Shown here piece after piece: positions 39,949-40,690 of a stretch of 45,230 nt of DNA. This DNA comes from a virus. Taxonomy: Duplodnaviria; Heunggongvirae; Uroviricota; Caudoviricetes. The notes beneath the pieces are model-generated. The model had not been told where the DNA came from and ran no database searches. It saw only the letters and a list, made by a program, of their open reading frames with translations. The translations under genes were made by a program, and so were the position numbers. The stretch lies in the IMG/VR virus record IMGVR_UViG_2718218139_000011; one strand, 5' to 3'. Every line of letters starts with the position of its first letter. The first letter of the stretch is position 1.

Positions 39949-39966
39949 TGTTTTAAAATCAAAACA
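39949..39966. promoter_or_regulatory. Putative operator palindrome (OR-like)
   Basis: TGTTTT-aaaatc-AAAACA overlapping the cI start codon in the 91-bp divergent region. Confidence 0.45.
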
Positions 39967-40604
39967 TGAGCAAGCAAACAATATCTGAACGCATAACCCA
40001 ACGTATGCATGCGCTAAACCTGAAAGGCAAAGACCTTGTCAATGCCACTGGCGCATCAAAAGGCTCCGTAAGTCAATGGATGAACGGTGGAGGAGCGCCG
40101 TCCTCGCGTTACATAAGTTCACTGGCAAAGATATTGAAAGTAAACGAAAATTGGCTTCTTAATGGAGGAGAGTTAAATACAGGTGATTCGCTTGATCTAT
40201 CTTTACCGCCGATAAAAACGGTTCCGCTACTATCACTTCAGCAGGCAGCAAGCTGGAGTGATTATATGAAAAATTCCTCAATAACCTCTTGTGTGCAGCT
40301 TGTCGGAGAAATCCCGGCCAATACCTTTGCAGTTGTTCTAGAGAGTGACAGTATGTCAACATCTGGTGGGGGAGTTTCCATCCCAAATGGTTCAACAGTT
40401 TTTGTTGATCCCGATCGAACCGTACAACCAGGAAATATTGTCCTTGCCTTACCCAAAGGGACCACAACACCTGTCATTCGTAAACTGGAGATAGAAGGGC
40501 CGGATATTCTTTTAGTCCCCACGAATCCTCGCTACCCTTCAATTATGCTGGATGATCTATCTTGCATATTGGGCGTATGCTTTAAAATTCAACAAGATAT
40601 TTAA
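39966..40604 (+). CDS. cI: CI-like repressor (XRE HTH plus S24 LexA-type autopeptidase domain)
   Basis: 212 aa; N-terminal HTH, Ser/Lys dyad region (ESDSM ... IRKL). Confidence 0.9.
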   Translation: MSKQTISERITQRMHALNLKGKDLVNATGASKGSVSQWMNGGGAPSSRYISSLAKILKVNENWLLNGGELNTGDSLDLSLPPIKTVPLLSLQQAASWSDYMKNSSITSCVQLVGEIPANTFAVVLESDSMSTSGGGVSIPNGSTVFVDPDRTVQPGNIVLALPKGTTTPVIRKLEIEGPDILLVPTNPRYPSIMLDDLSCILGVCFKIQQDI

Positions 40605-40668
40605 CCAACCTCATCTATTTGATTAACTGTATGCCATCGTGGTGATGGCTTAACAGCTGCCTGCTTAA

Positions 40669-40690
40669 AATGTTTTGATAAAAAAACATT
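40669..40690. promoter_or_regulatory. Putative operator palindrome (OL-like), overlapping a TTGACC -35-like hexamer
   Basis: AATGTTTT-gataaa-AAAACATT, same half-site and 6-bp spacer as the OR-like site. Confidence 0.45.

What the first reader, a model, noticed from the sequence alone, without database searches (positions are those of the whole stretch)
39949..40690. Matching operator palindromes TGTTTT-N6-AAAACA on both sides of cI
The same inverted repeat with a 6-bp spacer occurs at the cI start and about 65 bp past the cI stop, consistent with OR-like and OL-like repressor sites. The OL-like site overlaps a TTGACC -35-like hexamer that could drive the early-left operon.
Basis: seen in the sequence. 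Interest (0 to 1): 0.4.

Follow-up and report, generated by a model that had tools for sequence, protein, structure and literature searches.

The report
Repressor operator sites flanking prophage cI
The two matching 18-bp palindromes are real and are almost certainly two of four or five DNA sites where this prophage's CI repressor and Cro protein bind to control the lysis-lysogeny switch; it is an ordinary design in a repressor type nobody has characterised.

Summary
TGTTTT-N6-AAAACA occurs exactly twice in 45 kb (0.01 expected): at 39949-39966, ending on the A of the cI ATG, and at 40671-40688, abutting a TTGACC -35.

- Both sites lie inside a 1,079-bp immunity cassette (39654-40732: cro, OR, cI, OL/PL). 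Heteroimmune relatives replace this cassette wholesale, and each replacement carries its own palindromes at the same places.
- CI relatives from other genera keep the recognition helix SKG(S/T)VSQW. They carry [T/A]GTTTA-N6-TAAAC[A/T] at the same four positions.
- cI has no Shine-Dalgarno sequence, and a TAAAAT -10 sits inside the OR3-like site. A leaderless, autoregulated cI mRNA is plausible but unproven.

No binding experiment exists for this repressor; the nearest characterised repressors are at most 30% identical. This is a new member of a known kind, of modest interest.

The parts
39949..39966 (.). Operator S1 (OR3-like), TGTTTTAAAATCAAAACA. It is a perfect palindrome whose last base is the A of the cI ATG. 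It contains a TAAAAT -10-like hexamer at 39954-39959.
   Evidence: Exact match. Invariant in 55 loci except the innermost arm base. A homologous palindrome ends on the cI ATG in 10 of 11 lineages. It is PWM rank 1 of 45,213 positions, 18.2 bits.
39926..39943 (.). Doubtful central site S2 (OR2-like), AAGTCAAGAAACAAAACC. Only the right half (CAAAAC) fits the motif. The left half is the PR -35 (TTGACT on the minus strand).
   Evidence: CAAAAC occurs three times at exactly 23-bp phasing (39914, 39937, 39960), against 0 of 20,000 shuffles. The full-site PWM score is -0.5, rank 143. Homologous half-sites score 8-9 of 12 in L093-L095 and L100.
39903..39920 (.). Operator S3 (OR1-like), AGTTTAATAATCAAAACC. 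It covers the -10 and spacer of PR.
Evidence: It is PWM rank 2, 17.2 bits, using a matrix trained on other lineages. A homologous site ends 46-48 bp before the cI ATG in all 11 lineages.
39903..39932 (-). PR, the promoter for cro/cII-like early-right genes: TTGACT-N18-TAAACT. The predicted start is near 39896.
   Evidence: Promoter scan. The same promoter is called in the O157:H7 copy and in Edwardsiella. A GGAG Shine-Dalgarno precedes the cro ATG at 39874.
39632..39874 (-). cro-like gene (80 aa, P22_Cro family, DicC-like).
   Evidence: Pfam PF14549, E = 1.1e-15. Its recognition helix SKTTVSMW resembles that of CI.
39966..40604 (+). cI-like repressor (212 aa): N-terminal HTH_3 and C-terminal S24 autopeptidase. 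There is no Shine-Dalgarno sequence upstream.
   Evidence: Pfam. PDB lambda CI 3bdn, E = 3.8e-10, with SDSM and IRKL aligned to lambda Ser149 and Lys192. The N-terminus is conserved from this ATG in relatives.
40633..40649 (+). Hairpin GCCATC-GTGGT-GATGGC after cI, with no T-run. Its stem is conserved and its loop varies. It lies where relatives have canonical intrinsic terminators.
   Evidence: relatives.
40671..40688 (.). Operator OL2-like, TGTTTTGATAAAAAAACA (8-bp arms if taken as 40669-40690). It abuts the PL -35 and covers about -53 to -36.
   Evidence: Exact match. Its arms are invariant in 31 sequence variants while flanks vary. A homologous site lies 0-7 bp upstream of the -35 in relatives. 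PWM rank 3, 17.1 bits.
40689..40717 (+). PL, the early-left (dicBF-type) promoter: TTGACC-N17-CAAACT. Nearly all relatives have TAAACT. The predicted start is near 40724.
   Evidence: The scan calls TTGACC-17-TAAACT in the O157 copy and TTGACC-16-TAAACT in Edwardsiella. The window's copy fails the scan because of the T-to-C change.
40700..40717 (.). Operator OL1-like, AGTTCATTTTTCCAAACT. It covers the spacer and -10 of PL and is degenerate in this lineage.
Evidence: It is PWM rank 4, 17.1 bits. It is positionally homologous to sites scoring 9-11 of 12 in most of the other lineages.
39654..40732 (.). Immunity cassette: the segment replaced as a block in heteroimmune relatives. It holds cro, OR, cI and OL/PL.
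   Evidence: blastn of the window against phages Tritos, 606R7 and Evi. Flanks are 93-98% identical up to 39653 and from 40733 onward, with no similarity in between.

Best explanation
The two palindromes are operator sites of a lambdoid, Qin/dic-type prophage immunity region.

Mechanism (inferred throughout; no binding has been shown):
- Dimers of the CI-like repressor, and of the Cro-like protein, recognise an 18-bp site with invariant core GTT-N10-AAC. The window consensus is TGTTTT-N6-AAAACA.
- The set has four supported sites. OR1-like (39903-39920) and OL1-like (40700-40717) lie over the -10 hexamers of PR and PL.
- In a lysogen, CI on OR1-like and OL1-like/OL2-like would block RNA polymerase at PR (cro, cII/YdaT-like, replication genes) and at PL (ydfC, DicF, dicB and the rest of the early-left operon).
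- The OR3-like site covers the start codon of cI and a likely -10 (TAAAAT). Occupancy there, by Cro after induction or by excess CI, would shut off cI.
- CI carries an S24 autopeptidase domain, so RecA-stimulated self-cleavage is the probable induction route.
For: Statistics: 2 exact copies against 0.01 expected.

Context: cI (HTH_3 plus S24) lies divergent from a P22_Cro gene. ydfC, DicF (76.7 bits) and dicB lie downstream.

Modularity: both sites lie inside the 39654-40732 cassette. Three heteroimmune phages swap out this cassette, and each replacement has different palindromes at the same places. 606R7 has ATCTAA-N6-TTAGAT, and Evi and Qin have TTAGT-type sites.

Footprint-like conservation: in CI relatives of 84-90% identity and in 55 loci, the arms are invariant apart from the innermost base, while bases next to the sites and in the PL spacer vary.

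Deep conservation: lineages from Edwardsiella, Scandinavium, Kosakonia and metagenomes have HTH regions 47-56% identical and keep the helix SKG(S/T)VSQW. They carry [T/A]GTTTA-N6-TAAAC[A/T] at all four homologous positions.

Cross-validation: a matrix built from 27 foreign sites puts the four window sites at ranks 1-4 of 45,213 (17.1-18.2 bits; the next hit scores 13.2). The expected number of random hits at those scores is 0.01-0.03.

Shared recognition: CI and Cro have similar recognition helices, SK.(S/T)VS.W, as expected for two proteins reading one operator.

Promoters: PR and PL (TTGACY-N16-18-TAAACT) are the only promoter-like hits in the cassette in two relatives.

Precedent: Qin DicA has been shown in vivo to bind an 18-20-bp palindrome (TGTTAG..CTAACA) with the same GTT-N10-AAC core at the equivalent locus (PMC3441716).
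Against: - There is no experimental binding, footprint or transcript-start data for this repressor. No paper in the library holds these 18-mers.
- In Qin, two of three sequence-predicted operators (Om, Oa) were not bound by DicA in an in vivo assay (PMC3441716). Oa is the positional equivalent of S1, so prediction from sequence can overcall.
- The best palindromes are promoter-distal. This is unlike lambda, where OR1 and OL1 are the strongest sites.
- OL2 alone (-53 to -36) does not cover the -10 hexamer or the spacer of PL.
- The central OR2-like site is only a half-site.
- I picked the training sites for the matrix by position and by resemblance to the motif, so the cross-validation is not fully blind.
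- The CI cleavage site reads Ala-Ala rather than Ala-Gly, so SOS inducibility is uncertain.
Confidence: 0.85

Rival explanations
1. The perfect palindromes are mainly Cro sites: the first targets of Cro for shutting off cI and damping PL. CI's physiologically important sites would be only the -10-overlapping ones, or some other motif.
For: The best palindrome sits at the OR3-equivalent position in most lineages, which is Cro's preferred site in lambda (established knowledge). Cro carries an SK(T/S)TVS.W helix conserved across the same lineages. In Qin, DicA did not bind Oa, the equivalent site.
Against: CI has an equally conserved and similar recognition helix. All four sites share one core, so a protein that reads S3 and OL1 should also read S1 and OL2. 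In known lambdoid switches both proteins bind all the operators. An unbiased search found no other motif shared between the two control regions.
Confidence: 0.1
2. The OL palindrome is conserved because it is an A-tract UP element or bent DNA that boosts PL. Its resemblance to the OR site would then be chance in AT-rich DNA.
For: The site lies at -36 to -53 of PL and contains an A7 run, which is the position and composition of UP elements (established knowledge).
Against: The same 12 arm bases recur at OR, against 0.01 expected. In relatives the equivalent site lies 4-7 bp further upstream, lacks an A-tract and is still the same palindrome, for example TGTTTAAATATTTAAACA. A spacer substitution within the A-run is tolerated (TGTTTTGATAAGAAAACA) while the arms stay fixed.
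Confidence: 0.03
3. The palindromes act as RNA hairpins, for example a 3' structure of the cI transcript or a translation-start structure, rather than as DNA-binding sites.
For: RNA folding of 40600-40700 pairs AAUGUUUU with AAAACAUU in the minimum-energy structure. The S1 palindrome includes the AUG.
Against: The stems are almost all A-U. In relatives the OL2 site lies downstream of strong intrinsic terminators and so outside the cI transcript. Palindromes with the same core overlap the -10 hexamers of two promoters. The heteroimmune cassettes show the pattern of protein operators.
Confidence: 0.02

Closest known systems
Qin cryptic prophage immunity locus of E. coli K-12 (dicC - Oc/Om/Oa - dicA - dicBp operators)
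   Same: - The gene order is the same: a P22_Cro-family gene lies divergent from the repressor gene, followed by the early-left operon with ydfC, DicF and dicB.
- Both have three phased 18-bp sites between the two genes, with a 25-bp period in Qin and 23 bp here.
- In both, the repressor-proximal site abuts the ATG of a repressor gene that lacks a Shine-Dalgarno sequence.
- In both, two sites flank a TTGACC -35 at the early-left promoter.
- The operator core GTT-N10-AAC is shared: TGTTAG..CTAACA in Qin and TGTTTT..AAAACA here.
- The recognition helix ends in SVSQW in both.
   Different: - The repressor here is 212 aa with an S24 autopeptidase domain. DicA is 135 aa, lacks that domain and is relieved by the antirepressor Rem (PMC10448788).
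- Overall identity is only 26% (36% within the HTH region).
- The inner arm bases differ (TT against AG), so the two are presumably heteroimmune.
- In Qin the best palindrome is cro-proximal (Oc). Here it is cI-proximal.
Phage lambda OR1-OR2-OR3 / OL1-OL2-OL3 with CI and Cro
   Same: - cI and cro are divergent, with a tripartite operator of about 23-bp period between them.
- The same motif recurs at PL beyond the far end of cI.
- Sites overlap the -10 and -35 of PR and PL.
- The CI repressor has an HTH plus an S24 domain, with the Ser/Lys dyad aligned.
- cI lacks a Shine-Dalgarno sequence; lambda cI mRNA from PRM is leaderless (established knowledge).
   Different: - The half-site sequence and length are unrelated (17 bp in lambda).
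- Only two supported sites exist at PL.
- The middle OR site is a half-site.
- The strongest matches are promoter-distal.
- The OR3-like site lies about 10 bp closer to the cI start than lambda OR3.
- OL and OR are 722 bp apart rather than about 2.4 kb.
Phage P22 immC (c2 repressor / Cro, 18-bp operators)
   Same: - The operator is 18 bp long.
- The repressor has an HTH_3 fold; P22 C2 N-terminal domain structures are among the PDB hits.
- The Cro belongs to the P22_Cro Pfam family.
   Different: - CI is only 28% identical to C2.
- The operator half-sites differ; P22 uses ATTTAAG-type arms (recalled, not tested here).
- The early-left operon here is dicBF-type.

Membership tests
Lambdoid immunity region (CI/Cro with OR and OL operators) | Divergent repressor and cro genes separated by a short control region with repeated palindromic sites | tested here: met
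   cro is at 39632-39874 (-) and cI at 39966-40604 (+), with a 91-bp spacer. Sites S1 and S3 plus the half-site S2 sit at 23-bp phasing.
Lambdoid immunity region (CI/Cro with OR and OL operators) | The same operator motif recurs at the early-left promoter on the far side of the repressor gene | tested here: met
   OL2-like lies at 40671-40688 and OL1-like at 40700-40717, around TTGACC-N17-CAAACT.
Lambdoid immunity region (CI/Cro with OR and OL operators) | Operators overlap the core elements of PR and PL, so that bound repressor excludes RNA polymerase | tested here: met
   S3 covers the PR -10 and spacer. OL1 covers the PL -10 and spacer. OL2 abuts the -35. These are positions only, read from sequence and promoter scans.
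Lambdoid immunity region (CI/Cro with OR and OL operators) | The repressor, cro and operators form one exchangeable module that defines immunity specificity | tested here: met
   The cassette 39654-40732 is replaced between flanks of 93-98% identity in Tritos, 606R7 and Evi, each with its own palindromes.
Lambdoid immunity region (CI/Cro with OR and OL operators) | The repressor and Cro physically bind the sites and confer superinfection immunity | not testable with these tools
   No experimental data were found. This needs EMSA or footprinting and plating tests.
LexA/CI-type S24 self-cleaving repressors | C-terminal Peptidase_S24 domain with a Ser/Lys catalytic dyad | tested here: met
   PF00717, E = 2e-13. 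SDSM and IRKL align with lambda GNSM (Ser149) and FKKL (Lys192).
LexA/CI-type S24 self-cleaving repressors | Ala-Gly (or Cys-Gly) scissile bond in the linker | tested here: not met
   Lambda VQAGMF aligns with LQQAASW, giving Ala94-Ala95 in place of Ala-Gly. This is conserved in relatives of 84-90% identity. More distant relatives have QAG. Whether Ala-Ala is cleaved is unknown.
Qin/dic-type immunity locus (DicA/DicC) | P22_Cro-family DicC-like gene and an early-left operon carrying ydfC, DicF and dicB | tested here: met
   PF14549. DicF RF00039 scores 76.7 bits at 42514-42565. ydfC and dicB are annotated in a 97.9%-identical phage, and the corresponding ORFs are present in the window.
Qin/dic-type immunity locus (DicA/DicC) | Short DicA-type repressor (about 135 aa) without an S24 domain | tested here: not met
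   The repressor here is 212 aa with an S24 domain and is 26% identical to DicA.

The most novel reading that the evidence does not exclude
Across this repressor family the most perfect operator sits exactly on the start codon of a cI gene that lacks a Shine-Dalgarno sequence. In the window this site carries a TAAAAT -10 in its spacer. The cI mRNA may therefore be leaderless, with its promoter, transcription start and translation start all inside a single operator. In the window lineage the two perfect palindromes bracket cI 722 bp apart. They might pair through CI oligomers into a small loop that encloses the repressor gene and represses PL and cI together. That would be a compact variant of lambda's OL-OR loop.
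Probability: 0.2. Interest if true: 0.45.

Novelty: new member of a known kind. Interest (0 to 1): 0.3.

Why it matters
This immunity cassette is in 1,041 of 5,426 complete E. coli genomes, including O157:H7. [quoted passage not shown] Knowing its operator (core GTT-N10-AAC, TGTTTT-N6-AAAACA) and its promoters has several uses:
- It lets one predict which prophages are homoimmune.
- It allows reporters or derepression mutants to be designed.
- It corrects the start of the cI gene. Pipelines annotate it 13 or about 100 codons too short because the true start lacks a ribosome-binding site.

Conceptually it adds one more specificity to the textbook lambdoid switch rather than a new principle.

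Tried and rejected
- A GAAAA-N6-TTTTC palindrome in the PL spacer (40696-40711) looked like a second operator type. It is not conserved in relatives and I rejected it as chance.
- The inverted repeat AAACT-N10-AGTTT at 39888-39907 was not pursued; it does not share the half-site of the other sites.
- Close relatives were uninformative. 80 viral contigs carry CI at 99-100% identity, and the first genome-contig scan found nothing.
- The word-indexed protein search reached only relatives of 73% identity or more. The exhaustive HMMER search with the HTH domain was needed to reach other genera.
- The leader shared by all cassette types (40733-40878) was folded as a possible nut/put-like RNA. Its z-score of -0.66 shows no excess structure, and Rfam gave no hit.
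- The extra near-matches at 27673 and 32059 score 12.9-13.2 bits, lack context and were treated as chance.
- I looked for covariation between single recognition-helix substitutions and arm bases, for example G33A in L098 with GTTC arms. The pattern was suggestive but inconsistent across lineages, so I make no claim.
- No paper holds either 18-mer.

Full report
**Observation.** The pattern TGTTTT-N6-AAAACA occurs exactly twice in the 45,230-bp window. The sites are 39949-39966 (TGTTTTAAAATCAAAACA) and 40671-40688 (TGTTTTGATAAAAAAACA). Dinucleotide shuffles predict 0.01 matches. The first site ends on the A of the ATG of a 212-aa ORF at 39966-40604. The second begins 67 bases after that ORF's stop and is followed directly by TTGACC at 40689-40694. 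At OL the symmetry extends to 8-bp arms (40669-40690), and the two sites share the 10-mer ATGTTTTGAT. Allowing two mismatches adds only chance-level hits elsewhere.

**Context.**
- The ORF between the sites has an HTH_3 domain and a Peptidase_S24 domain. It aligns along its length with lambda CI, with the catalytic Ser and Lys in register.
- Divergent from it lies an 80-aa P22_Cro-family gene (39632-39874), followed by a YdaT/cII-like gene.
- Downstream of cI lie a ydfC homologue, the DicF sRNA (Rfam 76.7 bits, 42514-42565) and dicB.
- This is the layout of the Qin prophage dicC-dicA-dicBF locus of E. coli K-12, except that the repressor is SOS-type instead of the short DicA.
- The region is present at 80% coverage or more in 1,041 of 5,426 complete E. 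coli genomes, including O157:H7.
- Only three deposited phages carry this CI at 99% or more. The next best repressors, including P22 C2 and phage 21 CI, are at most 30.5% identical.
- No paper in the library contains either 18-mer.

**The sites belong to an exchangeable immunity module.** Phages Tritos, 606R7 and Evi match the window at 93-98% identity up to 39653 and again from 40733, but share nothing in between. The replaced block of 1,079 bp holds cro, the intergenic control region, cI and the putative early-left promoter, and it includes both palindromes. Each replacement cassette has its own palindromes at the same places:
- 606R7 has ATCTAA-N6-TTAGAT, with two copies 46 bp apart between cro and cI and two more flanking a TTGACT -35 after cI.
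- Evi has GTTTAGTG-type repeats.
- Qin has TGTTAG..CTAACA: Oc, Om and Oa between the genes, and two copies around the TTGACC of dicBp.

For Qin, DicA binding to Oc has been shown in vivo (PMC3441716). That each repressor type travels with its own motif is the classical signature of operators.

**Conservation within the lineage.** In contigs whose CI is 84-90% identical, and in 55 loci with this cI, both palindromes are kept. Only the innermost arm base varies (AAAACA to GAAACA at OR, TGTTTT to TGTTTA at OL). The four bases just upstream of the OR site, the bases upstream of the OL site and the PL spacer vary freely.

**Conservation across genera.** An exhaustive HMMER search with CI residues 1-75 found CI-like proteins that keep the recognition helix A-S-K-G-(S/T)-V-S-Q-W. 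Their HTH domains are 51-59% identical to the query in that search, and 47-56% in the later alignment of the fetched loci. Their loci come from Edwardsiella anguillarum, Scandinavium hiltneri, Kosakonia quasisacchari and several metagenome contigs. All have the same YdaT / P22_Cro / cI arrangement. The positions of the motif agree across lineages:
- In 10 of 11 lineages an 18-bp palindrome [T/A/G]GTTTA-N6-TAAACA ends exactly on the A of the cI ATG.
- A second copy ends 46-48 bp upstream, over the -10 of the cro promoter.
- After cI there is a copy 0-7 bp upstream of a TTGAC(A/C/T) -35.
- A further copy lies between the -35 and the -10. Its right arm, TAAACT, is the -10 hexamer.

**Cross-validation.** I built a symmetrised weight matrix from 27 such sites in seven lineages, excluding the window's lineage, and scanned the whole window. 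The top four of 45,213 positions were:

| Site | Coordinates | Score (bits) |
|---|---|---|
| S1 (OR3-like) | 39949-39966 | 18.2 |
| S3 (OR1-like) | 39903-39920 | 17.2 |
| OL2-like | 40671-40688 | 17.1 |
| OL1-like | 40700-40717 | 17.1 |

The next hit scored 13.2. A first-order Markov random sequence gives 0.01-0.03 hits at these scores. One caveat applies: I selected the training sites by position and by resemblance to the motif, so the test is not fully blind. The invariant core is G2 T3 T4 ... A15 A16 C17.

**The central OR position.** The site 39926-39943 matches only in its right half. CAAAAC occurs three times at exact 23-bp phasing, which happened in 0 of 20,000 shuffles. Its left half is the PR -35, and its matrix score is -0.5. 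I list it as doubtful.

**Promoters.**
- PR on the minus strand is TTGACT-N18-TAAACT, 39932-39903.
- PL on the plus strand is TTGACC-N17-CAAACT, 40689-40717.
- In the O157:H7 copy and in Edwardsiella, the scan's only two promoter-like hits in the cassette are these two, both with TAAACT.
- The window's PL fails the scan because its -10 begins with C. Only 1 of 31 sequence variants of this region shares that change.
- PL lies just upstream of a leader shared by all cassette types.

**Mechanism (inferred).**
- With predicted starts near 39896 (PR) and 40724 (PL), S3 and OL1 each cover about -24 to -7, and OL2 covers -53 to -36.
- S1 covers -70 to -53 of PR. It also covers -17 to +1 of a possible cI promoter.
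- cI has no Shine-Dalgarno sequence, and TAAAAT (39954-59) lies 7 bp before the ATG, so the cI mRNA may be leaderless like lambda's. The relatives also lack a Shine-Dalgarno sequence, but their -10-like hexamers are variable. I put this at roughly even odds.
- CI would repress PR and PL by occlusion. Occupancy of S1, by Cro or by excess CI, would shut off cI.
- CI and Cro share a similar recognition helix, SK.(S/T)VS.W, so both probably read these sites.
- Which protein prefers which site cannot be read from sequence. The perfect palindromes are the promoter-distal ones, unlike in lambda.

**Rivals.**
- *Cro-only sites:* this rival survives only in part. CI has an equally conserved and similar helix, and all four sites share one core, so CI should read them too.
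- *UP element:* rejected. In relatives the equivalent site has no A-tract and a different offset from the -35, yet is still the same palindrome.
- *RNA hairpin:* rejected. The stems are nearly all A-U, and in relatives OL2 lies beyond strong terminators.

**Cautions.** No binding data exist for this repressor. In Qin, DicA failed to bind the predicted Om and Oa sites in vivo, and Oa is the equivalent of S1. The CI linker reads Ala-Ala where lambda has Ala-Gly.

**Verdict.** It found the OR3-like and OL2-like members of a set of four supported operators, plus one doubtful half-site, in an uncharacterised but common immunity type. This is a new member of a known kind, with interest about 0.3.

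Noticed in passing
window 40712-40717 and 40733-40745: The window's PL -10 reads CAAACT, whereas almost all other copies read TAAACT. 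The window also lacks one CCCCA unit in the leader just downstream. Only 1 of 31 sequence variants shares these changes. This may be a down-mutation of the promoter for the toxic dicBF-type operon in this particular prophage.
   Followed up: partly
window 39966-40604 (residues 92-96): The CI linker reads QQAAS where lambda has QAG, giving Ala-Ala instead of the canonical Ala-Gly scissile bond. The Ser/Lys dyad is intact. More distant relatives have QAG, and one (P0041) also has AA. Cleavability is unknown.
   Followed up: partly
window 39966; L091 6117-6755; L001 4806-5405: Annotation pipelines start this cI too late. It is 113 aa in the RefSeq O157:H7 OK1 record and 199 aa in phage 813R8. The 212-aa ORF is nonetheless intact and its N-terminus is conserved across genera. 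The likely cause is that the true ATG has no Shine-Dalgarno sequence.
   Followed up: yes
window 40733-40878: A 146-bp leader after PL is 96-98% identical in all four immunity types. K-12 Qin has only its 3' part. It shows no excess RNA structure (z = -0.66) and no Rfam hit. A short ORF starts at 40811, and Tritos carries an in-frame 3-nt insertion in it. In Tritos this ORF is annotated as fused to ydfA.
   Followed up: partly
window 40633-40649: The hairpin after cI (GCCATC-N5-GATGGC) has a conserved stem and a variable loop but no T-run. Relatives in other genera have canonical intrinsic terminators at this place. Read-through from cI into the PL region may be possible.
   Followed up: partly
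window 40879-41320 (ORFs 41028-41234 minus strand, 40893-41249 plus strand): ydfA and ydfB of the early-left operon are replaced by a different module, whose junction lies at 40878. A 68-aa CxxC...CxxC zinc-ribbon ORF with a good GAGG ribosome-binding site lies on the opposite strand, antisense to the operon. Deposited phages instead annotate a 118-aa plus-strand ORF here.
   Followed up: no
window 42514-42565; 29851-30023 (-); 30796-31042 (-): Three RNA features were found: the DicF sRNA (76.7 bits), an STnc100 sRNA match (104.7 bits) and three tRNA genes in a row. The tRNA genes suggest a Stx-phage-like late region.
   Followed up: no
window 27673-27690 and 32059-32076: These are sub-threshold operator-like sequences: TGTTTTCATTAAAAAACC (12.9 bits) and CGCTTAATTCATTAAACA (13.2 bits). 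Both lie far from the immunity region. The first is intergenic, near a terminator upstream of the lysis genes. Both are probably chance.
   Followed up: partly
L098/L099 1400-1500 and 2220-2270: In the lineage whose recognition helix reads SKATVSQW (Gly to Ala), several operator arms read CGTTCG/TGAACG instead of TGTTTA/TAAACA. That cI also has a Shine-Dalgarno-like AGGTG. This may be a specificity covariation, but the pattern is not consistent enough across lineages to claim.
   Followed up: partly
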